Of a DNA stretch of 64,000 nucleotides, positions 3,434 through 41,437 are shown piece by piece. How positions within the stretch are numbered: position 1 is the first letter of the stretch; each line of letters opens with the position of its first letter. The translations under genes were made by a program, and so were the position numbers. Source of the stretch: an uncultured Myxococcales bacterium. GTDB taxonomy: Bacteria; Myxococcota; UBA727; JABDBI01. The notes under the pieces are model-generated. The model did no database searches. It had not been told where the DNA came from and worked only from the letters and a program-made list of their open reading frames with translations. The stretch is taken from the NCBI GenBank assembly GCA_964493205.1, contig CAZBMJ010000002.1, positions 50,238-114,237 of the forward strand. The letters run 5' to 3'.

Positions 3434-3726
3434 ACTTCAACTGTTAATTTTTTGTTAATATATATAAGTATATCTATTATCCATGCAATAGGTCGTAGTG
3501 TAAATAAATCTAAAGGTGACTCTGGTAATTTATCGAAAGTTCCTCTAAGTAATACTTCTATAAGCATAGAAAATGCTAATGTAAAAATTGATACAGGAAT
3601 AATTTCCCATGTTAATTCTATTTGTTCAATACTACAAACTATAAAATCATAATTAATATATCCTATCCATAATAAAATAGGAACAATTAAAAATATTATT
3701 CCTGGTATTTTAATTTTTTGTCTCAT
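3430..3726 (-). CDS. Small two-TM membrane protein; paralog family member 5
   Basis: N-terminus MRQKIKIPGIIFLIVPILLW. C-terminus INKKLTVEV. Confidence 0.5.
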   Translation of the reverse strand: MRQKIKIPGIIFLIVPILLWIGYINYDFIVCSIEQIELTWEIIPVSIFTLAFSMLIEVLLRGTFDKLPESPLDLFTLRPIAWIIDILIYINKKLTVEV

Positions 3727-3762
3727 ATTTAATTGTAAAAATGTTTGTGAAAAAATAAATTG

Positions 3763-4140
3763 TTAGTAACCTTCATAATAGTAAATTGTATATTGATTAG
3801 AAAATAATTTATGAAATATAATTTCGTTAGATTTAACTGTTATTTCATATTGTGTACCATCTCCCCATGCTCTATATACTTTTTCATTTTTTACATCTTT
3901 TTTATCAGTTATAACATACATTTTTATACGTTCTCCTGTATTATGATGTATTACACTATCATAAATATTTATTATATTTACTCGTAGATATCTAGGAGTT
4001 ACTAAAAAATTTTCTTGATACGCTAACGATGTACTTATATAGTTTTGTGTATTACCTATTATAGGTAATAGTAATAATAATAAAATTTTAAATTGTTTCA
4101 TATTTGACGATTTGATTAATAATCTTATAACACTCATCAA
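3763..4140 (-). CDS. Secreted hypothetical protein. The true start is probably the internal Met at ~4101.
   Basis: Signal-peptide-like MKQFKILLLLLLPIIGNTQ begins at residue 14. The upstream extension overlaps the polymerase C-terminal ORF. Confidence 0.45.
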   Translation of the reverse strand: MMSVIRLLIKSSNMKQFKILLLLLLPIIGNTQNYISTSLAYQENFLVTPRYLRVNIINIYDSVIHHNTGERIKMYVITDKKDVKNEKVYRAWGDGTQYEITVKSNEIIFHKLFSNQYTIYYYEGY

Positions 4141-5052: not shown

Positions 5053-6186
5053 CTATCTAGTCGTTACACCTTCATTGTTTGTTAACACAATGCTTGGCTC
5101 GGTATTACTTTCTTCTAAAGCTTTCACCGAATTTAAGGAATGTTTCATATTAGATTGCTCTAATAAGCGGCTGTATCTATAATACATGTTATTTTTTTGT
5201 CTTTGTTTAGTATTTACATTAATTTTAGGATTTATATCATGAATAGTGAGAAATAATATTTTTTTATTATCACCAGCATATTTAAATTGCAATCCTTTAT
5301 AATGTTTTACACGATTATTACAACAATTAGTAATATTTTGAACTTTTAAGTAGCTAATATCTCCAGTTCTAGAATTAGTATTTCTATCTAATATAGGAAA
5401 ATATTTTGGATATTTAATAGAATACTCTTGTATATCTATTGAACTTCTAAAAGTATTAATATATTTACCAAAAGTATCATATACTTCTATATAGGGAGTT
5501 CTGTTTTCTCTTGTTTTAATAGAAGATATCTTTCTAGCTTTTTTAAGTTCTTCAGAAATTGTTTTGGGAACTTTTAAATGATCAAATGTATAACCATTTT
5601 CTTTAGTTCTATTTTTAGAAGAATCTCTAGGAGTAATATAATATATTGCTAATTTCTTATATTTTTTAGGTACATCATCTACAGTTATTTCATTATTTTT
5701 TATTTTTTTTGAATAATTTATAGAAATATTTAAAGTTTCTTTAAAAGATTGTGCTCTTTTTTTATAAACTTCTTCTGAAAATTGATAACCTCCTGTTGCT
5801 TTAATATTAATATTGTAACTAAATTTTTTAGATATACATAAGTCATCTAAATATTTTTGTTCTCTATCGTGTAAAAATTCTAAATTATTAATTATTTCTA
5901 ATATTTCAAATTTAAAAATATTTTCTCCCCATTTATTATATGAAGATTGTAAATAATAATTTTTATGTTTTCCATTTTTTAGGTCTCTAGAATGCTCATT
6001 AAATCTATCTTTAAAAGATCTTCCTGTAGAGCCTACATAAATTTTATTGTTTTTTAAATTTGTAATTTTATAAATACCAAATTTTTCAAAATTGTCTAAA
6101 TTATCTACTATCATTTTATTATTTTTTATTACCACAAAGGTAATAAAAATAATTGTAAATATAGCGTAATAATTAAATTTTAACAT
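5053..6186 (-). CDS. GIY-YIG homing endonuclease inserted between the two DNA polymerase fragments
   Basis: FGIYKITNLKNNKIYVGSTGRSFKDRFNEH matches GIY-(N10)-YVG...R...H. The ATG lies 2 nt after the stop of the polymerase N-terminal ORF. Confidence 0.85.
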   Translation of the reverse strand: MLKFNYYAIFTIIFITFVVIKNNKMIVDNLDNFEKFGIYKITNLKNNKIYVGSTGRSFKDRFNEHSRDLKNGKHKNYYLQSSYNKWGENIFKFEILEIINNLEFLHDREQKYLDDLCISKKFSYNINIKATGGYQFSEEVYKKRAQSFKETLNISINYSKKIKNNEITVDDVPKKYKKLAIYYITPRDSSKNRTKENGYTFDHLKVPKTISEELKKARKISSIKTRENRTPYIEVYDTFGKYINTFRSSIDIQEYSIKYPKYFPILDRNTNSRTGDISYLKVQNITNCCNNRVKHYKGLQFKYAGDNKKILFLTIHDINPKINVNTKQRQKNNMYYRYSRLLEQSNMKHSLNSVKALEESNTEPSIVLTNNEGVTTR

Positions 6187-6190
6187 ATAT

Positions 6191-7348
6191 TTAACTACCG
6201 TAGGAACTATTTAATATAATTTTTAAGCAATGATTAATAATAGGATGTGTTTTCTTACTATATTTTTTTCTCTCATTAAAAGTATTTAAAAGAAATTTAC
6301 CATAACTTTCACCTAAATGAGCAGGCACTCTACCATGTTTCATAGCAAAATGAGGATAATATGAAACTTTATCCCAATCTAAAATTATATATTCTTCACT
6401 ACTTTGATATATACCAGGTTTTGTACTAAAATGTAGACCTCCAGCAGCATATACTATTTCACCATCATAATAAGGAATAATTTTACTAATTTGATTTTTT
6501 AAATTAATAAGTTTTTTATTACTATCAATATTAGATTTTATACTTGCATCAAGAGTTATATTTTTATAGAAATCTAAAGCAGATTTCAATACTGGATTAA
6601 CAAATTTATATTTATTAATATATGGTAATATTACTTCAGAAATAGCTATTTTTTCATTATATGTTTTCAGTTTTTTGACATCTGTTTCACTGATATTTAA
6701 ATCATAAGATAACTGTTTAACCATATATTTTTTAGCTATATCTGGTTCTGTAGAGTTAAGAAGATCTATTTTATTAAAATCTCCAAAATCTATTCTAAGT
6801 TTAAGTAGTTCTTTTGTAAATTTATATACATCTACAGTAGTTTCTACATCATATTTACAATATTTAACAATTTCTTCATCTTGTTTTTCTGTAAGTATAA
6901 GGTCATTAAAATGATAAGGTAAATCTTTAATAGATTTCTTCCTTAAAGAAAATTCTAATTTTTTTAATGATGTAGTTTTAGCACTACGAGGTCCAAAATT
7001 ATTTATAGACATTAAATCTATAGTCTTGTTGCAAAACTCTGATTCTCTATATATGGGCCACTCAGCACCTATATACTCATCATTAAAAGCTTTTATACCT
7101 TCATTGTTTATTGAAGGTCTCTTTGTAATATAAGTTAATATATTCATATCATAAAAAGAATTGTAACCCACAAAGTAAGTATCTTTTTCTTTTATAAGAT
7201 AGTTTTTTAACTTGTCTAATTCATTTATTTGAGTTACTCCATTTACTGTCCATAGTTTAAATGTTAAATATTCCTTGTTATAAGGATCATAAAACACTAC
7301 TAGAAAGTAATTAGGATATACTTCGCAGTCTAGGAAGATTAATCTCAT
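6191..7348 (-). CDS. Family B DNA polymerase, N-terminal fragment (3'-5' exonuclease domain plus palm motifs A and B)
   Basis: Exo I IFLDCEV; Exo II-like YNSFYDMNIL; Exo III YCKYDVETT. Motif A-like LDWDKVSYYPH (DxxSLYPS). Motif B KIILNSSYGS is followed directly by the stop codon. Confidence 0.75.
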   Translation of the reverse strand: MRLIFLDCEVYPNYFLVVFYDPYNKEYLTFKLWTVNGVTQINELDKLKNYLIKEKDTYFVGYNSFYDMNILTYITKRPSINNEGIKAFNDEYIGAEWPIYRESEFCNKTIDLMSINNFGPRSAKTTSLKKLEFSLRKKSIKDLPYHFNDLILTEKQDEEIVKYCKYDVETTVDVYKFTKELLKLRIDFGDFNKIDLLNSTEPDIAKKYMVKQLSYDLNISETDVKKLKTYNEKIAISEVILPYINKYKFVNPVLKSALDFYKNITLDASIKSNIDSNKKLINLKNQISKIIPYYDGEIVYAAGGLHFSTKPGIYQSSEEYIILDWDKVSYYPHFAMKHGRVPAHLGESYGKFLLNTFNERKKYSKKTHPIINHCLKIILNSSYGS

Positions 7349-8040
7349 ATCTTTCTATTTGTATATTGTAAAAATTTTATTATTTTTAATTTATCATAGT
7401 GAATATAATTATCACTTTTATTTTTATATATCCATATAAATCCTTTATATGTGTTTTTATAACCTGAACAACAAGAACTAATAGAACTTAATTTAAAATC
7501 GGGATGATCTTGATTAATTTCTTTTCTAGAAGAATATTGTTTTATAATATTTCTATTAATATCGCATTTTAAAATATAATATTTACTTTGAGAATTAGCA
7601 ATTTTTAAATAGTAATCATTTAATTCTTTTTTCGTAAATTTAGAATATCTTTCTTTTAATCTTAATCTATTTAAATTTTTAGTAGATTCTCTAACTATAT
7701 TACATTCATTACTATTATCTTCTTTACAATTATATCCATATAAAGAATTAGTTACATTATATTTTTTCATATAATGTAATTCTAACTGTTTAAGTAAATT
7801 TTCATCATATTCACTAATAGAAACTAATACATAATATTTGAAATTTTCTATACCATATTTATTTACAGAATTTAATAAATACTGATTTTCTTTCTTACTA
7901 TTATATTTAAAACATGCATTATGAGTAGAAATTCTTTGATAAATATTCTTACTCTGTCCTATATATTTCTTGTTATTTATAGTATTTTCAATACAATAAA
8001 TACCACTTTTATATCTATCTTCTTTTTTTAATTTTAACAT
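7345..8040 (-). CDS. GIY-YIG homing endonuclease
   Basis: SGIYCIENTINNKKYIGQSKNIYQRISTHN. ATGA overlap with the polymerase N-terminal ORF start. Confidence 0.85.
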   Translation of the reverse strand: MLKLKKEDRYKSGIYCIENTINNKKYIGQSKNIYQRISTHNACFKYNSKKENQYLLNSVNKYGIENFKYYVLVSISEYDENLLKQLELHYMKKYNVTNSLYGYNCKEDNSNECNIVRESTKNLNRLRLKERYSKFTKKELNDYYLKIANSQSKYYILKCDINRNIIKQYSSRKEINQDHPDFKLSSISSCCSGYKNTYKGFIWIYKNKSDNYIHYDKLKIIKFLQYTNRKI

Positions 8041-19954: not shown

Positions 19955-19988
19955 TTATAATAATTTAGAGGTTAATAAAATAAAAATG

Positions 19989-20059
19989 ATGATTTGCTAG
20001 GACTCGAACCTAAACTACAGAACCAAAATTTGTTGCATTACCAGTTATGTTACAAATAA
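19989..20059 (-). tRNA. Degenerate tRNA-like gene, possibly tRNA-Gln (TTG)
   Basis: Minus strand has a canonical T-arm TTAGG-TTCGAGT-CCTAG and an anticodon-loop-like TTTTGGT (T33, G37). The acceptor stem TTATTTG/CAAATCA has one mismatch, and the D and anticodon stems are imperfect. Confidence 0.4.
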
Positions 20060-20143
20060 GTATACTATATATTATAAATAGTTATTAATAATTCTTAAAT
20101 TTAGTCAAATATTTTTTGTATTTTTGTGTTATAAAATAATATT

Positions 20144-20764
20144 ATGACAAAAGAAATTTTAATACCATTAATAGAAAAAGGTCTTTCTACTTATAAAATA
20201 GCAAAAGAATTAAATTTAAGTAATTCCACTATTATATATTGGGTTAAATCTTTAGAATTATCTGATTTATATAAATCAATATCTCTTAGAGACAATTTAA
20301 AAAATACAATAAATTATAAATATTCTAAAGAAATTATAGAAGATTTTGCTAAAAATTCAAATTCATTATCAGAACTTCTTGAAAAGTTTAATCTTGTGCC
20401 ACGGGGTAGAAATTTTGATACAATAAAAAAATATATTAAATTACATAATATAGATATATCTCATTTCAATATTAATAAAAATAGAAAAGGTATAATTAAA
20501 GAACGTTCTATTAATAGTTATTTACATAATGAATTTAAAATAGGTAGTACTGCATTAAAGAAAAAACTTTATAAAACTAATCTAAAATTAAGAATTTGTG
20601 AGTTATGTGGTCAAGATGAGATATGGAATAATAAAAAAATGTCTCTTATATTAGACCATATAGATGGAAATTCTAATAATAATAATTTAAATAATTTAAG
20701 AATAGTTTGTCCTAATTGTAATGCTACTTTAGATACACATTGTGGAAAGAATAAACGTTCTTAA
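20144..20764 (+). CDS. HNH homing endonuclease with an N-terminal HTH
   Basis: CELCGQ...LILDHIDGNSNNNNLNNLRIVCPNCN matches C-x2-C...H...N...C-x2-C. The N-terminus YKIAKELNLSNSTIIYWVK is HTH-like. Confidence 0.7.
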   Translation: MTKEILIPLIEKGLSTYKIAKELNLSNSTIIYWVKSLELSDLYKSISLRDNLKNTINYKYSKEIIEDFAKNSNSLSELLEKFNLVPRGRNFDTIKKYIKLHNIDISHFNINKNRKGIIKERSINSYLHNEFKIGSTALKKKLYKTNLKLRICELCGQDEIWNNKKMSLILDHIDGNSNNNNLNNLRIVCPNCNATLDTHCGKNKRS

Positions 20765-23878: not shown

Positions 23879-23916
23879 GATTTAAAGGTTTAATGTTATG
23901 AAATATGTACACTCAA

Positions 23917-23943
23917 ATATATCTAGAGTGATGGAGTACAAAG
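23917..23943 (+). repeat. Direct repeat copy 3: ATATATCT-AGAGTGATGGAGTACAAA
   Basis: Third copy of the 26-nt unit, immediately 5' of the start of gene 23600..23878. Confidence 0.6.
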
Positions 23944-24010
23944 CTTAATTACCACAACCGCCTAAGCATCAGCAACAACGCATTAGCAGTTGCTACTAAC
24001 AATAGTAGTG

Positions 24011-24150
24011 AGCACAACACACAAGAACAAGACAACACACAACAACAGTTGCTACCATCACACAGTACACAGACAGACACTAGGAACACACAGCACACGC
24101 TGCAGGCTGCACTGCACAGGAACTAGCACAGAGCAAAGAGAAAACTAAAC
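24011..24150 (+). repeat. A+C-rich, T-depleted low-complexity tract
   Basis: CACAACACACAAGAACAAGACAACACACAACAACAG...ACACAGACAGACAC... has almost no T on the plus strand, in a genome that is ~70% A+T. Confidence 0.5.
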
Positions 24151-24159
24151 ATAACTTCT

Positions 24160-24214
24160 AGTACCCCACCCCCACCTTAAAAGTTTAGAGCAAGGGGGGG
24201 AGGTACTTTTTTTT
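24160..24214 (+). terminator. G/C-run hairpin plus T8; candidate plus-strand terminator
   Basis: GTACCCCACCCCCACCTT...AAGGGGGGGAGGTAC followed by TTTTTTTT. A second G-run GGGGGCGGGGG lies at 24222-24232. Confidence 0.45.
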
Positions 24215-24784
24215 AGCAAAAGGGGGCGGGGGTATAGTGGTACAAGTACACAAACTCAGTACCACATTATATTTTGTAACTACAGACACAAACTCATCTA
24301 CAAAATAATTTAAAATATATTATAAAGTCCGAAAGTCCAGTCCAGCTAAAACACTATATATCCTTCGGACTGGACTTAGATACCTATACCTAAAGAATAG
24401 TTTTTAATATTTTTTAAATTATTTTCATTTTACCCCCATTTATTAAATTTATTTAGCGTATCTTTGCACTATGTTTTTGAGCATAGACTCTGTACCTACA
24501 TTTTTGAGGAGAAATCCTGGTTTAATGTAATTATCAGATGCTGCTAATTATATAGTTCAAGTTCTGAGGATACACTTAATAGTAATGAAGTATCGTTCAA
24601 TAAAACTCCTAACCTAAGTCCTATGATATGGTGAAGAGCAAACTATCAAACAAGACTATATACAAAAACATCAGGCTGGTTAAAAGAAGTAACTGTGAAA
24701 TTTTCACCGTTTAAACCCCCTATGAGCTAGCGAGTAGGGTTTCCAAGATTGGATAGCTTGAGGTATATCTAAAATTAAGTAAAT

Positions 24785-25306
24785 ATGAGAATAGAGCCTA
24801 TTATAAAGGAACTAGAAGAAGTAAAAATAAGACTAAGTAAGTTACAAGATTCTTTAAAAGAGTTTGATGATACTGCTAATAAATATCGTCAACAACTAAT
24901 AATGAAGAGTACTCAATCTGAAAAAGTTATTAAGGTGAAACTTAAATCTCTAAAAATAGATTTTGAATTTCAAAAAATTATAAAAAATAATAAAGCTTTT
25001 AGAATTGTAGATTTTTATTTACCTAAATATAATCTTATTATAGAAGTAGATGGTTTTTATCATTCTGATAATGAACAAAGAGGTAAAGATTTAATAAGAA
25101 CTAATCAATTAGCTGATTTAGGTTACGATAAAATTCTAAGATTAGATAATATAAAAGCTAAAAATATAACAGAAGCTGATTTGTTGAAATTAATTAAATT
25201 AGCTAAGCCTATAAGAAAATCTACAAATAATAAATTACAAAAAATAATAAAATATAAGCAACGTATAGAGCAACTTGAAAAGCTAGTACGAGATTTAAGC
25301 AAATAA
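24785..25306 (+). CDS. Vsr/DUF559-like endonuclease-domain protein with an N-terminal coiled coil
   Basis: AFRIVDFYLPKYNLIIEVDGFYHSDNEQRGKDLIRTNQLADLGYDKILRL matches the ...IExDGxxH...D..R...L..GW.VLR core. Confidence 0.55.
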   Translation: MRIEPIIKELEEVKIRLSKLQDSLKEFDDTANKYRQQLIMKSTQSEKVIKVKLKSLKIDFEFQKIIKNNKAFRIVDFYLPKYNLIIEVDGFYHSDNEQRGKDLIRTNQLADLGYDKILRLDNIKAKNITEADLLKLIKLAKPIRKSTNNKLQKIIKYKQRIEQLEKLVRDLSK

Positions 25307-25328: not shown

Positions 25329-25366
25329 AAATCCTTAATCTTTTATTAGATTAGGGATTTTTTTGT
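25329..25366 (+). terminator. Rho-independent terminator
   Basis: AAATCCTTAATC-TTTTATTA-GATTAGGGATTT with one mismatch, followed by TTTTTTTG. Confidence 0.6.
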
Positions 25367-25416
25367 TTTACCTAATATATGTCAATTATTTTTCGTAACT
25401 TTGTGTAAATTTAAAT

Positions 25417-25572
25417 ATGTCAGAAGATAGAATAAGTGCATTTGCATTTAATGTGGCAGAACAAATAGAAGATCTTATTAATGTAAGAACAAAAAATCTT
25501 GAAGAGGATAATAGAAAATATGAGTGGGAAAACAATTATGATATAGAATCAATAGAATTTAAAGTAATATAA
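25417..25572 (+). CDS. Small ORF (51 aa), below the ORF-track threshold
   Basis: MSEDRISAFAFNVAEQIEDLINVRTKNLEEDNRKYEWENNYDIESIEFKVI. Same strand as the operon. Weak support. Confidence 0.25.
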   Translation: MSEDRISAFAFNVAEQIEDLINVRTKNLEEDNRKYEWENNYDIESIEFKVI

Positions 25573-25582
25573 ACAATAAGTG

Positions 25583-25744
25583 ATGTCAAAAACAAATAAA
25601 GCTTTTGATAGGTATATGAATCCTGATGGAGGTAGAAAGAGAAAAGAATCTCAAATACATAAATCACCTAAAGATTATAAGAAGCTAAGTAACCAAGAAT
25701 TAAAAGATTTATTAAACAAAACAAAAGATGACAATAATATTTGA
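25583..25744 (+). CDS. Small basic ORF (53 aa); overlaps the start of 25728
   Basis: MSKTNKAFDRYMNPDGGRKRKESQIHKSPKDYKKLSNQELKDLLNKTKDDNNI. Weak support. Confidence 0.25.
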   Translation: MSKTNKAFDRYMNPDGGRKRKESQIHKSPKDYKKLSNQELKDLLNKTKDDNNI

Positions 25745-26228
25745 TGATGAAATTAACGTAGATTCTGTAGAGAAATTCTGTATAGACCTAGATAACATTA
25801 TGCGAGGATTAGAAGAAGGAGAAACAGTAGACCTCTATATCTCAACCAATGGTGGACACAATGCATATATGCATGTTCTTATAAACTCTATTAATAAGTA
25901 CGCAGATAAACTAGTTATATATCTTACTGATATAATGCAATCATGTGGTTTTATTATGTTGTGGTATTTAAGAAACTTCAATATATATGCATTGCCTTCA
26001 TTTAGAGAATCTATGATACATAAAGTAGATATGGTACACAGTGTATCTAATAAACATTTTAATAGAAGAACTCAAAGAATTAATGAAGATAATAAAACAT
26101 GGTATGCTAGATGGAAAGAACTAGGACTTTCTAAAAAAGATTTAAAGAGATTTAAGAACAATAGAGATATTTACTTCTCTAGAGAACAAACATTAGAATT
26201 ATTTCCTAACATAATAGAAATAGAATAA
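25728..26228 (+). CDS. ClpP-like serine peptidase (S14 family)
   Basis: [24 protein letters not shown] aligns with ClpP [33 protein letters not shown] aligns with GQAASMG (Ser). MIHKV aligns with MIHQP (His). Confidence 0.65.
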   Translation: [166 protein letters not shown]

Positions 26229-26229
26229 A

Positions 26230-26622
26230 ATGAAAACATATAAACCTTTACCTGATAATCTAACTATTAAACCTAGCTCTATACATGGACTAGGTGTATT
26301 TGCTACAGAAGATATACCACTTCAAAATACTTACGTATTTTTAGGTTATACTCACTACGTAATAGAAGGAACTTTATATAGAGTAAATTATGGTGGATTC
26401 ATTAATCACTCTAATGATCCTAATTGTAAATTATTTCCTATTAGTAAAGAAGAAGATTATGAAGCTTTTCAAATGGTTACAATCAAGGATATTAAAGCAG
26501 GAGAAGAGTTAACCTTAGATTACACAAGGGAGTTATGTGGATTAACAGGATATGAAGATGCTGATTTTTTAAAAGAAGAATTTAAATCATGTTTAAGTGA
26601 TATTGAAAAATATGGATTTTAA
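26230..26622 (+). CDS. SET-domain protein lysine methyltransferase-like (130 aa)
   Basis: GFINHSNDPNCKLF matches the NHSCDPN motif and GEELTLDYT matches the GEELTxDY motif. Confidence 0.7.
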   Translation: MKTYKPLPDNLTIKPSSIHGLGVFATEDIPLQNTYVFLGYTHYVIEGTLYRVNYGGFINHSNDPNCKLFPISKEEDYEAFQMVTIKDIKAGEELTLDYTRELCGLTGYEDADFLKEEFKSCLSDIEKYGF

Positions 26623-26756
26623 AAAATATATAGAACTTAAACCGTTAGCTTTAAAACTACTTTATTCATTTGAGAAACATAAACTTCCTTATTATGATGA
26701 AACAAATAAAGTAGCAGAAATTATAAAAATATTAAATAATAATTAAATAAATAAAA

Positions 26757-26978
26757 ATGATAATTAGACACAAAGCTGTAGTACAGCAACCAAGAATTAA
26801 AAGAGACAAAACTGGTATGGTATCATTTGGTACTCTTTTAGAATTAACTAAAGAACAGTTTGATGAATTAAATGATACCTACTACAATGGTACAGAAGTA
26901 TTCTTATTTGTAGTAGGAGAAGATGATTTAGTAGATTTTGTAAAAGAATTAGGTGAAGATCTTTTAAACAATAAATGA
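26757..26978 (+). CDS. Hypothetical protein (73 aa)
   Basis: Complete ORF. ATGA overlap with the next gene. Confidence 0.4.
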   Translation: MIIRHKAVVQQPRIKRDKTGMVSFGTLLELTKEQFDELNDTYYNGTEVFLFVVGEDDLVDFVKELGEDLLNNK

Positions 26979-27256
26979 TGAAAGTAATTGAGATAAGTTT
27001 AGAAGATTATAATAAACTAGAACTTAAACCTATCTTTGAAGAGTTAAACGTTGAGTATGTGTTAGGAGGTTATTATGGATTAACTAAATTAAGAAAAGAA
27101 GAATTCTTTAGTGAATTAGAAATGATTCATATACCTGGTTTTGATAATTCAATGTTCTTCTTTTTAAGAAGGGATATTCCAGGAACTAATCAATCATATA
27201 GTTTAATTCTCTATAGTGGAGTAAATATAGTAGGACATATAAAAATAAAAATATAA
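26975..27256 (+). CDS. Hypothetical protein (93 aa)
   Basis: Complete ORF. Its stop overlaps the start of the vWA gene. Confidence 0.4.
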   Translation: MMKVIEISLEDYNKLELKPIFEELNVEYVLGGYYGLTKLRKEEFFSELEMIHIPGFDNSMFFFLRRDIPGTNQSYSLILYSGVNIVGHIKIKI

Positions 27257-27864
27257 TGAAAACAATTTGTAATTTAATTTTAGTAGATGCATCAGGAAGT
27301 ATGCAAAATAGAGTATCAGATGTTAAAGGTGGTTTAATGAAACTATTCTCTGATATTAAGGAAGAAAAGGAACTTAATCAGCATACTATTGTATGTGATT
27401 TTTCTAATGATTTTAATGTACTCGTTAATACAGTAGATTCTAAGCTTTTAACTTCAGAAATGATAGATAAGTATAAAACTAGAGGATCAACTTCATTATT
27501 TGATGCTATTAAGAAATCATTTGAATTAGTTCCAAAAGGAGTAGATGGTGTATTTGTATCTATTATAACTGATGGAGAAGAAAACTCTTCTGTAGAATGT
27601 AATTCAACTCAAGTAAAACAATTAATATCTTTAGGTAAAGAAAATAAATGGGGTATTACGTTTATGGGGTGTGATGAGAAAGCATTAGATATAGCTAAAT
27701 CCATAGGTATAAATAGTATACTACAATTTGCAGATAATGCATTAGGTTATGAGAAAGCAAGTAAAGAAAGAAGTTTTGCTTATGCAAGTTATACATCTAG
27801 CGTTAAAAAAGCAGTTACATTAGATGAGATTCAATCTGATGATTTATTCACTAAACCAAATTAA
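27256..27864 (+). CDS. von Willebrand factor A (vWA) domain protein
   Basis: MIDAS LILVDASGSMQNR. Then ...STSLFDAI... and ...VSIITDGEEN. Confidence 0.75.
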   Translation: MKTICNLILVDASGSMQNRVSDVKGGLMKLFSDIKEEKELNQHTIVCDFSNDFNVLVNTVDSKLLTSEMIDKYKTRGSTSLFDAIKKSFELVPKGVDGVFVSIITDGEENSSVECNSTQVKQLISLGKENKWGITFMGCDEKALDIAKSIGINSILQFADNALGYEKASKERSFAYASYTSSVKKAVTLDEIQSDDLFTKPN

Positions 27865-27949
27865 TATGAAAAAACAAATTAAACCAAAACCTAAAATTAC
27901 TAAAATGAGTAAAGGAGGTAAAGTTAAAAAGAATTGTTAACAAAAAAAA

Positions 27950-27978
27950 GGAGAGTATTTTTACTCTCCTTTCTTGTT
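27950..27978. terminator. Bidirectional rho-independent terminator between convergent genes
   Basis: GGAGAGTA-TTTT-TACTCTCC is a perfect 8-bp stem, flanked by A8 on the 5' side and TTTCTTGTTT on the 3' side. Confidence 0.7.
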
Positions 27979-28814: not shown

Positions 28815-28962
28815 ATATTTATTATTTTACTCATTTAACTGCAAAGTTACAACAAAAAAATGACTTATTTTGTATATTATCCTATTTTTTTAACATAGAA
28901 ATTAATAATACCCTTCTTTTTTAAATATATTTTTCGTAACTTTGCACTAAAGTTAGAAAGCA

Positions 28963-29322
28963 ATGAAGATAATTAAACTAAATTCTAAATATGAACTACT
29001 ATCTATAATGATAGACTTAGCTCTTATTTTAAAATTACCTAAAGAATTTGGTCTTAGAGATAGAGAAAAGGAATTTCTAATACATACTATTATATTGTCT
29101 AATGAAGGTTATACTTTAGAAAGCGCAGAGATGGTAAAGACCATAGCAAAGCTTATGAACATTAAACCTGATGATGTATATAATTATAGAAAGATTCTAA
29201 AAAATAAAGGATGGTTAGTTCAAACTATAGATGGTTTTGAATTATTAAGTGCTTTAGATTATACAGATAGAGATATTCCTAATGATATAGAAATTAAATA
29301 TAAACTATCAGTAGCAAGATGA
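28963..29322 (+). CDS. Hypothetical protein (119 aa)
   Basis: Complete ORF. First gene of the plus-strand small-gene operon. Confidence 0.4.
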   Translation: MKIIKLNSKYELLSIMIDLALILKLPKEFGLRDREKEFLIHTIILSNEGYTLESAEMVKTIAKLMNIKPDDVYNYRKILKNKGWLVQTIDGFELLSALDYTDRDIPNDIEIKYKLSVAR

Positions 29323-33217: not shown

Positions 33218-33731
33218 AGGAAATCCTCAACATGATTTTAAAGAGCAGAATCCTCTTATATGTACTATAAGGGGATTTTCTGATGTATATACTAAACATA
33301 AACCAGAGATAGCATCTAAGATATGTTGGGCAATGTTTATGATAGAAGAAGCAGATCAAGAAGATAATCCTTTAGCTAGAATAAGCAATATCAAAGAAAG
33401 AACAGAAGAAGTACAAAAATCTTATTATAAGATAGATACAACAACACAAGAATATAAAAACTTAGTAGATGATTTTTCTAAATTTGCTTTAACAAAAGAG
33501 CAAACACTTTATAGAATACATGTACGTAAGTTTGAAGAAATGACATCTTATCTAGATACTCTGTCACTAGATGATGATAAACAGTTTGGTAAGTATATCC
33601 AAATTATGGATAAACTAAGTAAAATGTGGGCAGGATTAGAAATAGTAAAAGAGAGAATGGTTGAAGCAAAAAGTAAAAATAGAATTAGAGGAAATGCTCA
33701 ACTATCTGTAAGAGAGAAAAGGAAACGATAA
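33204..33731 (+). CDS. Putative terminase small subunit, assigned by position only
   Basis: 175-aa protein with a basic C-terminus (RIRGNAQLSVREKRKR), immediately upstream of and overlapping the large terminase. Confidence 0.3.
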   Translation: MSVIKGNPQHDFKEQNPLICTIRGFSDVYTKHKPEIASKICWAMFMIEEADQEDNPLARISNIKERTEEVQKSYYKIDTTTQEYKNLVDDFSKFALTKEQTLYRIHVRKFEEMTSYLDTLSLDDDKQFGKYIQIMDKLSKMWAGLEIVKERMVEAKSKNRIRGNAQLSVREKRKR

Positions 33732-36063: not shown

Positions 36064-38586
36064 ATGAATGAAAATAATAATTTAGGTGTACCTATTAGTC
36101 ATGCTAGCATAAAGAGACATAAAACTTCTTATGAGCAAAAAAAATCTAATGACTGGGCATGGTTAAAGGAATGGATAGATTACTTTTGTAATTCTGTTCA
36201 TTTAGACTCAGAAGAAATAGAAAAAATTCTTCTTAACTATAGACTTTATAATGGGAGAGGTGTTTATAAAACACAAGTAGATTCTCCAATGATGAGTAAA
36301 GATTTAGAAGAAGAAGGTTACTATTTTAATAGCGAAGATATTCCTCACTTTGACATTATAACACCTATTGCTAAATCCTTATATGGACAGCAACAATTAA
36401 TGCCTTTTAAACCTATAGTTACAGATTCTTCTTTTAACAATGTAAACTCTCGTAAGAAGAAAAGAATAGAACTATTCCAAGAATACATAAATGAAACTAT
36501 AATCAATCCTACTAGAGAACAAGCTATGCAGGAATGGTTACTAGAAAATCAAATAGAAGATATAAACATGCTGCCTCCTGATATGCAGGAACAAGCACAA
36601 TCTCAAATACAAGGTAAGTCTCAAGCTATGATGCCTGAAGATATAGACAGGTATATGGCTTCAGATTATAAATCTCCTAGAGAAACACAACTACAACAAA
36701 TAACAGAATTCACTATTAGGAGAGATAAGTTAAAATTCTGGACAGATGAAAACTTTAAACACTTACTTATATCAGGTGGACAGTTTTATGAAACATGTAT
36801 AAGACATAAAAAAGCTTTTACTAGAATTTGTAATCCTATAGGATACACATCTGGTGGTCCAGAGGATGCTATGTTTGAGGAAGATAAAGATTGGCAAATA
36901 TATGAAGAGCAAATTACTTTAGCTACTTTATTTAGAGACCATGGTGCTGAAATAACAGAAGGAGATCTTAAAAAACTAAGAGAATTTGATCCTACTACTT
37001 CTACAAGAAATAGAGGAGAGTTTCCAGAACCTATGGCTACTAAGTTAGCAGAGTTTGATGCAGAAACAGGTATATTTGATTTTGCACCTAAAAATCTTAA
37101 AACAAGAGAAGGACAAGATTTCTTATTAGGTCTTTATGCTAAATTTGGAAACATAAACTCTAATGATAAGTTGTTTACAAGAAAAACAGTAGCTTTTAAA
37201 TCTCTTAGAAAATTTAAACTAGTTACTAGATATGATATCAAAAAGAATACTTATGAAGAATTCTGGGTAGATGGAGCATATCAAAAAAATCCTAAAAAGG
37301 ATATCAAAGTAGATACGCACTGGTTTCCTCATGCTTTTATGGGAAGGAGAGTAGAATTTGGTTCTGCAGATAACTATTTATATTTTGATTTAGGTCCAGT
37401 ACCTAATCAGTATAAAAGTGTGTTAGAACCATGGAATATAACAATGCCTTTCATGGGTGTTAAGTATTCTACTCTATTTGGAAATACACCTAATGTAGCT
37501 CCAATGGATTTAGCTAAAAAATGGCAAGATAAATTCAACATTAAGTTAGCACTTATACAAGAAAAAGAAAATACAGATGTAGGTAGAATATTTGCTATAG
37601 CTACATCACTTAAACCTAAAGATTGGTCTTTTGCTAAGTGGATGACTATGGCTAAGTATGGTAAGATATTACCATTAGATACCAATGGAGAGATGATGAA
37701 TGGTATAGATGCTCAAATATTTAAAACATTTGACCTTAGACAAATAGATGAAATATCTCAACACCTTCAACATTTAGATTGGATTAGACATCAAGCTGCT
37801 CTAGCTATGAACTATAATCCACAAAGACTAGGACAAATAGTTTCTTCTGAAGCTGTTAGAAATAGTCAACAAAATATACAACAATCTACATATCAAACAC
37901 AAGACCTATTTACTCTTCATAATGAAGTAGTAGAAAGAGTTTTAAATCGTCACATTAATAATGAGCGTATAGCTCTTATGGATAATGACTTTGTAGCATC
38001 TTATGTGTTAGATGATATGTCTATTGCTGAACTTAATCTAGATAAAGAACTTCTAGATGCTGCAGAAGTAGGAATTATCTTAAGAAACTCTTCAGAAGAT
38101 TTCAACAACCTTAGAGAGATTAAACAAGATAGTCAAGCTATGATACAAAACGGAATGATAACATTCCCAGAGTACATTAGACTTAAAATGGCTAATAATA
38201 TGGCAGATGCTCTTAACATAGCAGAGAGAGCTGAGAAGAAATTATTACAAAGACAACAAGAACAACAACAAGCTCAAGCTGAACAAGCACAACAAATAGA
38301 ACAAATGCGTGCAGATCTTGAGAGAGAAAAAGTAGAGCGTGAAGCTTCTAATAAAGCTGCTGAAAGAGAGTCTCAAGAGTTTAGAGAGAAAATTAGAGCT
38401 ACTATGATGGCTAATCAAATGGATATAGACAAAGATGGTAGAAGTGATATCTTACAAGTTAAAGATATGGATAGTATAGAAAAATCTAAGGATAGAGATT
38501 TAGATGAAAAACTTTTAGATAAAAAACTTAAAGCTGATATGGAGAGAGAACGCATAAAAGCTAAAAGTAAAACAAAAACAACATAA
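36064..38586 (+). CDS. Putative portal protein (840 aa), by position and size
   Basis: Directly follows terL. C-terminal Q/E-rich coiled coil QQQEQQQAQAEQAQQIEQ. Confidence 0.45.
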   Translation: MNENNNLGVPISHASIKRHKTSYEQKKSNDWAWLKEWIDYFCNSVHLDSEEIEKILLNYRLYNGRGVYKTQVDSPMMSKDLEEEGYYFNSEDIPHFDIITPIAKSLYGQQQLMPFKPIVTDSSFNNVNSRKKKRIELFQEYINETIINPTREQAMQEWLLENQIEDINMLPPDMQEQAQSQIQGKSQAMMPEDIDRYMASDYKSPRETQLQQITEFTIRRDKLKFWTDENFKHLLISGGQFYETCIRHKKAFTRICNPIGYTSGGPEDAMFEEDKDWQIYEEQITLATLFRDHGAEITEGDLKKLREFDPTTSTRNRGEFPEPMATKLAEFDAETGIFDFAPKNLKTREGQDFLLGLYAKFGNINSNDKLFTRKTVAFKSLRKFKLVTRYDIKKNTYEEFWVDGAYQKNPKKDIKVDTHWFPHAFMGRRVEFGSADNYLYFDLGPVPNQYKSVLEPWNITMPFMGVKYSTLFGNTPNVAPMDLAKKWQDKFNIKLALIQEKENTDVGRIFAIATSLKPKDWSFAKWMTMAKYGKILPLDTNGEMMNGIDAQIFKTFDLRQIDEISQHLQHLDWIRHQAALAMNYNPQRLGQIVSSEAVRNSQQNIQQSTYQTQDLFTLHNEVVERVLNRHINNERIALMDNDFVASYVLDDMSIAELNLDKELLDAAEVGIILRNSSEDFNNLREIKQDSQAMIQNGMITFPEYIRLKMANNMADALNIAERAEKKLLQRQQEQQQAQAEQAQQIEQMRADLEREKVEREASNKAAERESQEFREKIRATMMANQMDIDKDGRSDILQVKDMDSIEKSKDRDLDEKLLDKKLKADMERERIKAKSKTKTT

Positions 38587-39898: not shown

Positions 39899-41437
39899 AT
39901 GGCACGATTAAAACCTACTAAGTGGGAGATATACGAAGAATCAGCTAAACAAGCACCTTATGGTAACTTTATTAGTGAGAATGTTCTTCTTGTAAATCAT
40001 CCCAATTCAAAAAAAGCTGCTGTATTAACAGATAGTGTAATGCAATACGCTGCTACAGCAAGACCTGCGTTAAGTGGGAAAAAAGCTACATTATGGGATT
40101 CTCTTGTTGGTAAAGGTAGAGAAAGAACTGTAGATGCAGATGAAGTAGAATGGTCACTAAAAGGTTCAGGAAAAATAGAAACACTAGCTAAGGAAAACCT
40201 TATGCCAGGTGTACTATTTCCAGGACATAATGGTGATGAATTTCAGATTAAATTAGATAATCCTAACTTTGTTCCTGGTGATACTTTAGCACCAGAGATA
40301 GCATGGGATCAACAAATGATAGTACAATATCTTCCTATTAAAGATGGTTTAGACTGGATTTATACAGGTAAGTTAGTTACTTTAGATCCTAATGCATATT
40401 TTGATCCAGAGCTTTTAACAGCAGGATTAAAATGGATTAAAATAGGTGCAGCTTATTCAGAATACTCTTCTGGTTATGGTAGCTTCCAAACTACAGGTAA
40501 TACTTCTTATATCAAGTTTAAAACTTGGTTAAGTGACTGGGGTAAGAGAGCAGAAGTAACTAATAAGGCACATGATCTTAATTTAGTTCTAAAACCTATA
40601 GATGATAAAGGAGTAGTCATTAATGGCATTCCTCAACAAGTTATCTCATGGGTAGAAGCAGAGTTTCTAGTAGAATCTAAATGGGAAAAAGAACTAATGT
40701 GCTGGTATGGTAGAGCTGCTGGTAAAAATATTATAGATCATACTTCAGGACTACACAGACGTATAGGACCAGGTGTGATGGAATTCATGGAAGATGCAAA
40801 CATCATAACTTATCCTTTAGGAAACTTTAGCATAGATGCGTTAGCAGAATTTATGATGGAAGTAGGCTGGGATACAATTTCTGCTGAAAATGCAAACATT
40901 GTAGTTAAAACAGGTAGAATGGGTATGAAGCAAGCTAGTGACTCTATTAGAGAGTTATATACTATGCTTAATATAAATGTTCCATTTGAAAAATATGTAA
41001 GTTCAGGTAATACTTATCCTGGTTCTAATAGCCCAGGTTATAAAGTATTGAGTCCTCACTTCTTGCAAGTAGATTTAAATCCTTTTGGTTCATTAACATT
41101 TGAACACTTACCTATCCTAGATAACAGAGAACTTAATGGAGGTATTGTGCATCCTGATACAGGATTACCACTTACATCTTACATGTACTTTGTAATGGAT
41201 TATGGTCTAGGTTCTCATGGTAACGTAGAGCTTTTGAGGAAAAAAGATTCAGAAGTATTCACTTATATTTGTGGTACATGGTCTCCAGTAGGTCCTATTA
41301 ATGGAAAAACAGGTAGAGGAGGTTTCATGGCATCTCATGATAGAAGGTCATATGATTTAGTAGCTGCAGATACCTTTGGTGTAAGGATTAAAGATGTTAA
41401 TCTTTGTCTTATGTTGCTACCATCAGTAGGATATTAA
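39899..41437 (+). CDS. Putative major capsid protein (512 aa), by position
   Basis: Large gene after the scaffold-like gene. No SD. Normal composition. Confidence 0.4.
   Translation: MARLKPTKWEIYEESAKQAPYGNFISENVLLVNHPNSKKAAVLTDSVMQYAATARPALSGKKATLWDSLVGKGRERTVDADEVEWSLKGSGKIETLAKENLMPGVLFPGHNGDEFQIKLDNPNFVPGDTLAPEIAWDQQMIVQYLPIKDGLDWIYTGKLVTLDPNAYFDPELLTAGLKWIKIGAAYSEYSSGYGSFQTTGNTSYIKFKTWLSDWGKRAEVTNKAHDLNLVLKPIDDKGVVINGIPQQVISWVEAEFLVESKWEKELMCWYGRAAGKNIIDHTSGLHRRIGPGVMEFMEDANIITYPLGNFSIDALAEFMMEVGWDTISAENANIVVKTGRMGMKQASDSIRELYTMLNINVPFEKYVSSGNTYPGSNSPGYKVLSPHFLQVDLNPFGSLTFEHLPILDNRELNGGIVHPDTGLPLTSYMYFVMDYGLGSHGNVELLRKKDSEVFTYICGTWSPVGPINGKTGRGGFMASHDRRSYDLVAADTFGVRIKDVNLCLMLLPSVGY

What the first reader, a model, noticed from the sequence alone, without database searches (positions are those of the whole stretch)
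25728..26622. Adjacent ClpP-like peptidase and mini SET-domain methyltransferase in the early/accessory operon
ORF 25728 aligns motif-by-motif with ClpP: the INSPGG region, the Ser in the GxxSxG context, and His in MIHxx. It is far from the capsid module, so it is unlikely to be a prohead protease. ORF 26230 carries both SET signature motifs (NHSxDPN and GEELTLDY) in only 130 aa, resembling minimal viral SETs. A phage-encoded protein lysine methyltransferase implies modification of a host or phage protein, for example a nucleoid protein or ribosomal protein. The 4-nt spacing between the two genes suggests co-expression.
Basis: partly seen in the sequence, partly recalled or inferred. Interest (0 to 1): 0.55.

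Follow-up and report, generated by a model that had tools for sequence, protein, structure and literature searches.

The report
Linked mini-protease and SET methyltransferase genes
A marine crAss-like phage carries, side by side in one small transcription unit, a stripped-down ClpP-type serine protease and a minimal SET-domain protein lysine methyltransferase. Both look catalytically intact and stay genetically linked in related phages, but their targets are unknown.

Summary
Both ORFs exist as described. ORF 26230-26622 (130 aa) is a genuine SET-domain protein: Pfam PF00856 E=4.9e-14, all catalytic motifs present, and PBCV-1 vSET is the closest solved structure to its AF2 model.

ORF 25728-26228 (166 aa) fails Pfam's ClpP threshold on its own (15 bits against 20.2). 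A 60-member family profile, however, hits only ClpP in the PDB (4e-13). The AF2 model (pLDDT 98) matches ClpP at TM about 0.74. Ser72, His98 and Asp147 map onto E. coli ClpP Ser97, His122 and Asp171, and Ser and His are present in every aligned one of 152 family representatives. The protein lacks ClpP's N-terminal gating loop and helix A.

The intergenic gap is 1 nt, not 4. The unit sits behind a Bacteroidota-type promoter on the capsid-gene strand, so it is probably a middle unit, not an early one.

The new observation is linkage. SET lies within 1.5 kb of the ClpP-like gene in 8 of 12 informative lineages, in three arrangements that include both gene orders. Conversely, only 1 of 80 phage SET loci carries the protease.

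The cultured relative phi14:2 has neither gene, which argues against a prohead protease. Each gene is a new member of a known kind. Targets and any functional coupling remain untested.

The parts
25329..25360 (+). Terminator-like hairpin (13-bp stem followed by a T-run) after the DUF559 endonuclease gene. It marks the upstream edge of the unit.
25388..25403 (+). Promoter-like 16-mer ATTTTTCGTAACTTTG, containing a Bacteroidota-type -7 element (TAACTTTG = TAnnTTTG). An exact second copy lies at 28929-28944, ahead of the next + strand gene cluster.
   Evidence: The identity of the -7 consensus comes from my own knowledge of Bacteroides promoters.
25417..25572 (+). Small ORF (51 aa) of unknown function; first gene of the unit.
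   Evidence: called as a gene in the identical contigs L004 and L005
25580..25744 (+). Small ORF (54 aa) of unknown function. It overlaps the ClpP-like start by 17 nt.
25728..26228 (+). Minimal ClpP-fold (MEROPS S14-like) serine peptidase, 166 aa. Candidate oxyanion residues are G42-G43; the catalytic set is Ser72, His98 and Asp147. It has no N-terminal axial loop or helix A.
26230..26622 (+). Minimal SET-domain protein lysine methyltransferase, 130 aa. It has GxG (G20-G22), N59-H60-S61 and E92-E93...Y98. A C-terminal CGLTGY...FLK tail is shared with its subclade.
26300..26510 (+). Core of the SET gene (codons about 24-94). In an otherwise 98-100% identical phage contig (L100) it is replaced by a 34-68% identical allele.
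26612..26746 (+). Small ORF (44 aa from the ATG) overlapping the SET 3' end; function unknown.
26757..26978 (+). ORF of 73 aa, function unknown.
26975..27256 (+). ORF of 93 aa, function unknown.
27256..27864 (+). von Willebrand factor A (VWA) domain protein, 202 aa; last gene of the unit.
   Evidence: PF13519, 3.4e-6; phrog_7371, 7.9e-27
27947..27972 (+). Terminator-like hairpin (11-bp stem) between the convergent VWA gene and the exonuclease gene. It marks the downstream edge of the unit.

Best explanation
**What it is.** Two accessory enzymes of a marine crAss-like phage (probable Bacteroidota host) are co-transcribed in an eight-ORF unit. The unit runs from a promoter-like motif at 25388-25403 to a hairpin at 27947-27972, upstream of the capsid module.

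**Gene 1.** This is a stripped-down ClpP-fold serine peptidase that keeps the oxyanion glycines and the Ser72-His98-Asp147 set. It begins at the first core beta-strand, so it lacks the axial gating loop and helix A through which cellular ClpP is closed and coupled to ClpX or ClpA.
- Inferred: it assembles into a ClpP-like ring.
- Inferred: it cleaves peptides or unfolded proteins without a dedicated unfoldase, in the infected cell.

**Gene 2.** This is a minimal SET-domain enzyme with intact AdoMet-binding motifs (GxG, NH) and the catalytic tyrosine (ELTLDY).
- Inferred: it transfers methyl groups from S-adenosylmethionine to a lysine of a host or phage protein. The target is unknown. Candidates by analogy are histone-like DNA-binding proteins or ribosomal proteins.

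**Relationship between the genes.** They are genetically linked across this phage clade, so they are probably expressed together in the middle phase of infection. Whether they act on the same target is not shown.

**Shown versus inferred.** Shown: gene structure, homology, fold, conservation of catalytic residues, linkage statistics and promoter/terminator motifs. Inferred: oligomer state, ATPase independence, substrates, timing of expression and any coupling.
For: **SET**
- PF00856 E=4.9e-14, above the gathering score.
- 879 homologues. P8, S16, F24, R51, G55, N59, H60 and E93 are invariant and Y98 is at least 90% conserved in an alignment of 39 of them.
- AF2 pLDDT 81.5; the best PDB match is vSET 3kma_A (E 1.8e-6, TMt 0.69).

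**ClpP-like**
- A 3-sequence profile finds 284 representative proteins of roughly 160-180 aa.
- The 60-member profile hits only ClpP chains in the PDB, best 4e-13, with Ser and His in register.
- 26 of 60 members individually match PF00574.
- AF2 pLDDT 98; the Foldseek top 50 are all ClpP.
- hhalign against E. coli ClpP (sequence verified against 3mt6) maps S97 to S72, H122 to H98 and G68 to G43.
- Over 152 representatives Ser is present in 150/150, His in 148/148 and Asp in 130/147, with Glu in a further 10.
- The stop-to-stop frame opens only 4 codons before the ATG, so the short N-terminus is real.

**Linkage**
- SET lies within 1.5 kb in 8 of 12 informative ClpP-like lineages.
- Three arrangements occur: ClpP then SET, SET then ClpP, and the two separated by 1-3 genes.
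- The SET found in the inverted arrangement belongs to a different SET subclade.

**Transcription unit**. The phi14:2 analogy comes from 10.1101/2020.03.07.982082.
Against: - No biochemical data exist for any member of either phage family in the literature I could search.
- The single-sequence ClpP Pfam score is below threshold.
- Only a monomer was modelled, so ring assembly and an open pore are assumptions.
- From the SET side the two genes are not obligate partners: only 1 of 80 phage SET loci has a ClpP-like gene within 6 kb.
- More distant ClpP-like members lack SET.
- Linkage within one phage clade may reflect shared ancestry or a shared accessory-gene hotspot upstream of TerL, not shared function.
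- Expression timing is inferred by positional analogy only.
Confidence: 0.7

Rival explanations
1. The two enzymes form one functional module. In one version, SET marks lysines on a target (or on phage 'self' proteins) and the gate-less ClpP-like peptidase degrades the marked proteins or spares the protected ones. That would be a methylation-coupled proteolysis system used to remodel the host proteome.
For: - Linkage is retained in 8 of 12 ClpP-like lineages, down to 31% protease identity.
- The gene order is inverted in two lineages, and there SET comes from a different SET subclade. This suggests repeated juxtaposition or selection for co-inheritance.
- Coding regions overlap or are 1 nt apart.
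- The SET core is swapped between near-identical genomes, as expected for a specificity determinant under pressure.
Against: - 79 of 80 phage SET loci lack the protease and have heterogeneous neighbours.
- ClpP-like members in Lightbulbvirus-type and other phages lack SET.
- In one lineage the adjacent SET is degenerate (FINTS in place of FINHS, GxG lost) while the protease is intact.
- In another lineage three genes separate the two.
- No known methyl-lysine reader element was identified in the protease.
Confidence: 0.15
2. ORF 25728 is the head-maturation (prohead or cargo-processing) protease of this crAss-like lineage, and SET is an unrelated neighbouring accessory gene.
For: - The protein has the same truncated architecture as ClpP-related head-maturation proteases: NF045542 aligns 3-157 to 3-158 of 165 positions.
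- 20 of 60 family members match NF045542, and 12 match phrog_1684 'head maturation protease'.
- It lies on the capsid-gene strand. In relatives it sits only 0.85-1.8 kb upstream of TerL-portal-MCP.
Against: - Scores are far below the NF045542 cut-off (15.8 bits against 120), and equally many members match cellular ClpP models.
- The gene is never found between portal and MCP.
- phi14:2 has the homologous TerL-portal-x-MCP module and makes virions, yet has no family member at HMM E<=1 in six frames.
- Other family members sit among helicase/RecA, RecA, or thioredoxin/Cpn60 genes.
- In phi17:2 the homologue (gp086) is annotated as 'hypothetical protein'.
Confidence: 0.1
3. The ClpP-like protein works with, or poisons, the host Clp system. 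It could co-assemble with host ClpP rings or dock host ClpX/ClpA, redirecting ATP-dependent proteolysis during infection.
For: - The fold and the handle helix (111-132) are ClpP-like.
- PHROG 1827 members are labelled 'ATP-dependent protease'.
- Mixed ClpP rings are known in bacteria (my own knowledge).
Against: - The N-terminal loop and helix A needed for unfoldase coupling are absent.
- Three of seven mapped docking-pocket positions are polar or charged: Y60 to D35, F82 to K57 and M92 to T67 (the residue list is from memory).
- No AAA+ unfoldase was found among the window ORFs I scanned.
Confidence: 0.05

Closest known systems
PBCV-1 vSET (A612L), the minimal chlorovirus SET-domain histone H3K27 methyltransferase (PDB 1n3j, 3kma)
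   Same: - Similar size (119 aa against 130 aa).
- A bare SET core without pre-SET or Zn-binding post-SET modules.
- Same motifs (GxG, NHS, ELxxDY).
- It is the best structural match to the AF2 model (E 1.8e-6, TMt 0.69).
- It is virus-encoded.
   Different: - Sequence similarity is marginal (E 1.2e-3).
- The host here is a bacterium without histones, so the substrate must differ.
- This protein belongs to a large marine-phage family (phrog_28741; 879+ homologues).
- Its subclade has its own conserved C-terminal tail, ELCGLTGY..(E/D)(W/F)LK.
Prokaryotic SET-domain lysine methyltransferases acting on chromatin-like proteins (the chlamydial SET/NUE family, Methanosarcina Go1-SET, Legionella LegAS4/RomA)
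   Same: SET catalytic core. Precedent that SET enzymes in or from prokaryotes methylate DNA-associated proteins (own knowledge; PMC2904774 for NUE). There is a weak NCBIfam hit to AnkI/LegAS4 (1.3e-4).
   Different: Those proteins are larger cellular or effector proteins, and several target eukaryotic histones. No orthology was shown. The phage protein's substrate is unknown.
Cellular ClpP (MEROPS S14), e.g. E. coli ClpP (PDB 1tyf, 3mt6)
   Same: - Same fold (TMq about 0.74).
- Oxyanion Gly, catalytic Ser, His and Asp in register.
- A handle-like long helix.
   Different: - It lacks about 26 N-terminal residues of mature ClpP (the axial hairpin and helix A).
- It is below Pfam's and NCBIfam's ClpP cut-offs.
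- Docking-pocket positions are partly polar.
- No partner unfoldase was seen.
ClpP-related phage head-maturation proteases (NCBIfam NF045542; PHROG 1684 and 94)
   Same: The same N-terminally truncated ClpP core of about 165 residues. Phage-encoded.
   Different: Scores are far below the family cut-off. The gene is not positioned between portal and capsid genes and is not fused to a scaffold. It is absent from a cultured phage with the same capsid module.
PHROG 32912 / Cellulophaga phage phi17:2 gp086 and its phi4:1 homologue (uncharacterised)
   Same: This is the true family of ORF 25728. 49 of 60 family members match phrog_32912 (best 6.2e-32). The best BFVD structural hit is the phi4:1 protein. 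Size is 162-170 aa and the catalytic residues are the same.
   Different: Those members lie in replication/recombination neighbourhoods and have no adjacent SET gene.

Membership tests
SET-domain protein lysine methyltransferases (Pfam PF00856) | Profile match above the curated threshold | tested here: met
   53.1 bits against a cut-off of 22.4, E=4.9e-14
SET-domain protein lysine methyltransferases (Pfam PF00856) | AdoMet-binding motifs: N-terminal GxG and the (R/F)xNHS segment | tested here: met
   The protein has HGLGVFA and GGFINHSNDPNC. N59 and H60 are invariant and G22 is at least 90% conserved in 39 homologues.
SET-domain protein lysine methyltransferases (Pfam PF00856) | C-terminal ELxxDY motif with the catalytic tyrosine | tested here: met
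   The protein has GEELTLDY. E93 is invariant and Y98 is at least 90% conserved.
SET-domain protein lysine methyltransferases (Pfam PF00856) | SET beta-fold | tested here: met
   The AF2 model has pLDDT 81.5 overall and 83-96 over residues 11-100. There are 267 PDB matches at E<=1e-3, and the 50 listed are all SET-domain structures. The pseudoknot itself was not inspected.
SET-domain protein lysine methyltransferases (Pfam PF00856) | AdoMet-dependent methylation of a protein lysine | not testable with these tools
   Needs an enzyme assay.
vSET-like minimal viral histone methyltransferases | Minimal SET core without pre-SET or Zn post-SET modules | tested here: met
   The protein is 130 aa. It has NHSN in place of NHSC and no Cys cluster. 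vSET is the best structural match.
vSET-like minimal viral histone methyltransferases | Histone H3K27 substrate in a eukaryotic host | tested here: not met
   The phage is crAss-like with Bacteroidota-type promoters, and its relatives infect Cellulophaga and Flavobacterium. No histone substrate is available in such hosts.
ClpP, the proteolytic subunit of ATP-dependent Clp proteases (PF00574 / TIGR00493) | Profile match above the curated threshold | tested here: not met
   15 bits against 20.2. NCBIfam ClpP models give no hit for the window protein at E<=1e-3. Homology is nevertheless established through the family profile (4e-13 to PDB ClpPs).
ClpP, the proteolytic subunit of ATP-dependent Clp proteases (PF00574 / TIGR00493) | ClpP/crotonase-like fold with a Ser-His-Asp triad and an oxyanion glycine | tested here: met
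   Foldseek top 50 are all ClpP. S72, H98, D147 and G43 are in register with E. coli S97, H122, D171 and G68 and are conserved family-wide.
ClpP, the proteolytic subunit of ATP-dependent Clp proteases (PF00574 / TIGR00493) | N-terminal axial loop and helix A that gate the pore and couple to the unfoldase | tested here: not met
   The protein starts at the equivalent of E. coli mature residue about 27. The Pfam alignment starts at profile position 19. Only 4 codons are open upstream of the ATG.
ClpP, the proteolytic subunit of ATP-dependent Clp proteases (PF00574 / TIGR00493) | Hydrophobic pocket for the IGF/LGF loops of ClpX/ClpA | tested here: inconclusive
   Of 7 mapped positions, 3 are polar or charged (D35, K57, T67) and 4 are hydrophobic or aromatic. 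The residue list was recalled from memory.
ClpP, the proteolytic subunit of ATP-dependent Clp proteases (PF00574 / TIGR00493) | Stacked heptameric rings (tetradecamer) | not testable with these tools
   Only a monomer could be modelled.
ClpP-related phage head-maturation protease (NCBIfam NF045542) | Profile match above the curated threshold | tested here: not met
   15.8 bits against 120
ClpP-related phage head-maturation protease (NCBIfam NF045542) | Gene located within the portal-scaffold-capsid cluster, or fused to a scaffold or MCP | tested here: not met
   The gene ends 7.5 kb upstream of TerL (33731), on the opposite side of TerL from portal (36064) and MCP (39899). In relatives it is upstream of TerL and never between portal and MCP.
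ClpP-related phage head-maturation protease (NCBIfam NF045542) | Present wherever the cognate capsid module is present | tested here: not met
   phi14:2 has the homologous module but no family member (HMM E<=1).

The most novel reading that the evidence does not exclude
The SET methyltransferase and the gate-less ClpP-like peptidase form a phage-encoded two-enzyme system in which lysine methylation decides which proteins are degraded. Methylation would act either as a degron on host targets or as a protective 'self' mark on phage proteins. The swappable SET core would set target specificity.
Probability: 0.1. Interest if true: 0.8.

Novelty: new member of a known kind. Interest (0 to 1): 0.45.

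Why it matters
Protein lysine methylation by a bacteriophage has, to my knowledge, never been characterised, and nothing in the literature I could search reports it. Yet mini-SET genes are very common in marine phages: 879+ homologues, including pelagiphages and cyanophages. This locus gives a clean, catalytically intact example to test.

The 166-aa ClpP core defines a family of at least 284 representative clusters of stand-alone phage peptidases. These have intact catalytic residues but none of the elements that tie ClpP to an ATPase. Their role in infection is unknown.

The repeated SET-protease linkage in marine crAss-like phages, and the allele swap confined to the SET core, both yield concrete testable hypotheses about how phages manipulate host proteins after translation.

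Tried and rejected
- **DNA search against phages.** Megablast of the region found nothing. tblastn of the ClpP-like protein also found nothing. A more central family member (P0137) was needed to reach the cultured Cellulophaga phages.
- **Shallow PDB profile.** A 3-sequence profile gave only noise against the PDB. The 60-member profile was required.
- **Locus scans.** The search for related loci with the broad alignment failed for lack of a conserved stretch. Narrower alignments returned only one further contig, the same one from IMG/VR and from JGI.
- **Defence systems.** PADLOC gave no hit for either protein, so I rejected a defence or anti-defence system label.
- **A conserved SET partner.** I looked for a recurrent SET neighbour among 80 phage loci. 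No neighbour family occurs in more than 13 loci, and they range from DNA polymerase and helicase to terminase and baseplate proteins.
- **Diversity-generating retroelement.** I rejected this as the cause of the SET core swap, because the differences include indels.
- **N-terminal truncation as an annotation artefact.** Rejected, because a stop codon lies 4 codons upstream of the ATG.
- **Sigma-70 promoter scan.** It found no more sites than shuffled sequence (42 against 47.6) and was uninformative. The Bacteroidota-type motif was found by reading the intergenic regions.
- **Literature.** Searches for phage SET enzymes or stand-alone phage ClpP found nothing relevant.
Full report
**1. The observation**

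Both ORFs are present on the + strand at the stated coordinates: 25728..26228 (166 aa) and 26230..26622 (130 aa). The sequence shows TAA at 26226-26228, one A, then ATG at 26230. The quoted motifs are all in the translations.

**2. The SET gene**

- Pfam PF00856 scores 53 bits (cut-off 22.4), E=4.9e-14.
- PHROG 28741, of unknown function, scores 7.6e-24.
- A search of 5.8 billion proteins returns 879 homologues. Most are 94-140 aa and come from marine metagenomes.
- tblastn finds unannotated homologues in Pelagibacter phage Kolga and in cyanophages P-RSM6 and P-SSM7.
- In a 39-sequence alignment P8, S16, F24, R51, G55, N59, H60 and E93 are invariant, and Y98 is at least 90% conserved. The GxG, NHS and ELxxDY signatures needed for AdoMet binding and catalysis are therefore intact.
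- The AF2 model has pLDDT 81.5, and 83-96 across residues 11-100. Its best PDB match is chlorovirus vSET (3kma_A, E 1.8e-6, TMt 0.69), followed by the SET domains of MLL, ASH1L, NSD and SETD2.
- There is no Cys-rich post-SET module. The protein's subclade instead shares a tail, ELCGLTGY..(E/D)(W/F)LK.

**3. The ClpP-like gene**

As a single sequence the gene only grazes the ClpP models:
- PF00574: E=0.023, 15 bits against 20.2, although the alignment spans residues 3-156.
- NF045542: E=0.01.
- PHROG 1827 is significant at 5.9e-9.

Only two other 90%-identity clusters turned up in the word-indexed search. An exhaustive HMMER search with that 3-sequence profile found 284 representatives at E<=1e-3, mostly 160-180 aa.

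Evidence from a 60-member alignment of this family:
- It has four invariant columns: G42, G43, S72 and H98.
- 26 members individually match PF00574.
- Its profile hits only ClpP chains in the PDB, best 4e-13, with 'ySaG' aligned to 'aSMa' and 'miHk' aligned to 'MIHQ'.

The AF2 model has pLDDT 98, and the Foldseek top 50 PDB hits are all ClpP at TMq about 0.74.

I aligned the family to E. coli ClpP by hhalign. The alignment maps S97 to S72, H122 to H98 and G68 to G43. By inspection, NRDIYFS aligns with ERDRFLS, which places D147 on D171.

Across 152 representatives Ser is present in 150/150 aligned sequences, His in 148/148 and Asp in 130/147, with Glu in 10 more. This is the conservation pattern expected of an active enzyme.

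What is missing matters as much as what is present:
- The protein begins at the first core strand, equivalent to E. coli mature residue about 27. It therefore has no axial hairpin and no helix A.
- The frame is closed 4 codons upstream of the ATG, so this is not a mis-called start.
- Three of seven positions I recall as forming the ClpX-docking pocket are D, K and T here.
- No AAA+ unfoldase appeared among the window ORFs I scanned.

**4. Genome context**

The window comes from a marine crAss-like phage:
- The MCP matches PF23898 Crass_capsid at 8e-41.
- TerL and portal match crAss-type PHROGs.
- The closest cultured TerL is that of Cellulophaga phage phi14:2, at 32% identity.

Genes at 583-22918 lie almost entirely on the - strand. 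Genes at 24785-63509 lie on the + strand, with TerL at 33731, portal at 36064 and MCP at 39899.

The ClpP-like and SET genes sit near the start of the + block. They are bracketed by terminator-like hairpins at 25329-25360 and 27947-27972. They are preceded by ATTTTTCGTAACTTTG at 25388-25403. An exact second copy of this 16-mer lies at 28929-28944, ahead of the next + strand cluster. The 16-mer contains TAACTTTG, which fits the Bacteroidota -7 promoter consensus TAnnTTTG (my own knowledge).

In phi14:2 the replication module is early and is transcribed by the virion RNA polymerase. Genes on the capsid strand are middle or late and are transcribed by the host RNA polymerase. Middle promoters there include ones upstream of g108 and g110, which lie in the small-gene region preceding TerL (10.1101/2020.03.07.982082; gene map). 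By positional analogy, the ClpP-like/SET unit is more likely middle than early.

**5. Linkage of the two genes**

I examined the genomic context of 13 distinct ClpP-like lineages; 12 were informative (L017 ends at the gene).

| Arrangement | Lineages |
|---|---|
| ClpP-like immediately followed by SET | window, L001, L007 |
| ClpP-like, 43-aa ORF, SET | L105 |
| ClpP-like, then a GIY-YIG endonuclease fused in frame to a degenerate SET | L015 |
| SET immediately followed by ClpP-like | L012, L108 |
| SET, three genes including PhoH, ClpP-like | L106 |
| No SET nearby | L002/L003, L018 (next to RecA), L009 (next to thioredoxin, 1 kb from Cpn60), phi17:2 (between helicase and RecA) |

That gives 8 of 12 lineages with SET within 1.5 kb, in three arrangements covering both gene orders. 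The SET in the inverted arrangement of L012 falls in a different SET subclade.

The reverse does not hold. Of the 80 closest SET loci in IMG/VR, only one has a ClpP-like ORF within 6 kb, and it is the L007 contig again. SET neighbours there are heterogeneous.

The pairing is therefore a conserved trait of one clade of marine crAss-like phages and not an obligate two-gene system. It is compatible with selection for co-expression. It is also compatible with both genes occupying the same accessory hotspot upstream of TerL.

**6. Prohead protease?**

For:
- The truncated architecture equals that of ClpP-related head-maturation proteases.
- A third of family members weakly match those models.
- In relatives the gene lies 0.85-1.8 kb upstream of TerL.

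Against:
- Just as many members match cellular ClpP models.
- The gene is never between portal and MCP.
- phi14:2 has a homologous TerL-portal-x-MCP module and produces virions, yet has no family member and no SET at HMM E<=1 in all six frames.
- More distant family members lie in replication, recombination or chaperone neighbourhoods.

I put this rival at about 0.1.

**7. Most likely mechanism**

Shown: two intact catalytic domains in one compact unit.

Inferred for the peptidase: it forms ClpP-like rings. Because it lacks the gate and the unfoldase interface, it cleaves peptides or unstructured proteins without ATP. From my own knowledge, this parallels the deregulated activity of N-terminally truncated or ADEP-opened ClpP.

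Inferred for SET: it methylates a lysine on a host or phage protein. Candidates by analogy with chlamydial and archaeal SET enzymes are HU/IHF-like DNA-binding proteins. The window has a weak HU-like ORF at 29319 (E=0.023), and crAss-like phages encode IHF-like proteins. Ribosomal proteins are another candidate.

No experiment on either phage family was found.

**8. Novelty and score**

Each gene is a new member of a known superfamily, and each already has a PHROG family (28741; 32912 and 1827) whose function is unknown or generically labelled.

Two things appear to be undescribed, to my knowledge and in the library I could search: the clade-wide SET/ClpP-like linkage, and the cassette-like replacement of the SET core between otherwise near-identical genomes.

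Interest is 0.45. This is a well-founded, testable lead into phage-directed protein methylation and proteolysis, but neither a new kind of element nor a demonstrated mechanism.

Noticed in passing
window 26300-26510, compared with L100 about 3670-3920: A contig from another sample (ENA ERZ27275549, 28,290 bp) is mostly 92-100% identical to window 25550-27960 in 50-nt windows (lowest flanking window 84%). Across the SET core (codons about 24-94) identity drops to 34-68%, with indels. The first 24 and last 37 or so codons are retained. This looks like an allele or cassette swap confined to the part of SET that should bind substrate.
   Followed up: partly
L015 3073-4299 (also L016 815-2041): Downstream of a ClpP-like gene, a 408-aa ORF begins with the SET N-terminus (MSYKPL) and continues into a GIY-YIG/NUMOD1 homing endonuclease. 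It ends with a full-length SET domain whose motifs are degenerate: FINTS in place of FINHS, and GxG lost. This appears to be a homing-endonuclease invasion of the SET gene.
   Followed up: partly
window 25388-25403 and 28929-28944 (+); weaker copies at 20111-20126 (+), 24451-24466 (+) and 28842-28857 (-): An exact 16-nt repeat, ATTTTTCGTAACTTTG, contains the Bacteroidota -7 promoter element TAnnTTTG. The two exact copies and the weaker copies at 20111 and 28842 lie 13-19 nt upstream of a start codon; the copy at 24451-24466 is about 320 nt from the next ORF. These are likely host-RNA-polymerase (middle) promoters and point to a Bacteroidota host.
   Followed up: partly
window 24785-25306 (+), 5053-6186 (-), 7345-8040 (-), 20144-20764 (+): The window is rich in homing-endonuclease-type genes: DUF559/PvuRts1I-like, two GIY-YIG and one HNH. 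Close relatives carry different ones at the same places. L100 has a Dam/LAGLIDADG ORF upstream of the unit, and several relatives have an intein-containing TerL.
   Followed up: no
L009 1869-5039; L019 (phi17:2 gp086 to gp098); L103 (phi14:2 g105): Phage chaperonin genes recur near this accessory region. Cpn60 lies 1 kb from a ClpP-like gene in L009. GroES lies 6 kb from gp086 in phi17:2. GroEL sits in the pre-TerL region of phi14:2. This hints at a protein-homeostasis theme for the region.
   Followed up: no
window 27256-27864 (+): A 202-aa VWA-domain protein (PF13519 3.4e-6; phrog_7371 7.9e-27) closes the same transcription unit. It is kept in the near-identical contigs, but no VWA gene was seen after SET in the more distant relatives L001 and L007 (ORF sizes and listed Pfam marks only; not checked by HMM).
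   Followed up: no
window 23879-24784: The roughly 0.9-kb non-coding stretch at the strand-switch region contains an unusual C/A-rich tract (about 23990-24150). It also has G-rich and C-rich runs (CCCCACCCCCACC ... GGGGGGGAGG ... GGGGGCGGGGG at about 24160-24235). In phi14:2, long intergenic regions near the early end are highly transcribed as non-coding RNAs.
   Followed up: no
window 14622-14696 (-) and 19988-20059 (-): tRNA-His (GTG) and tRNA-Gln (TTG) genes lie in the - strand block.
   Followed up: no
L106 3280-3645: In the 137-kb contigs that carry P0127, the linked SET has FINCS in place of FINHS. It lies next to ribonucleotide reductase and PhoH genes, not upstream of TerL.
   Followed up: no
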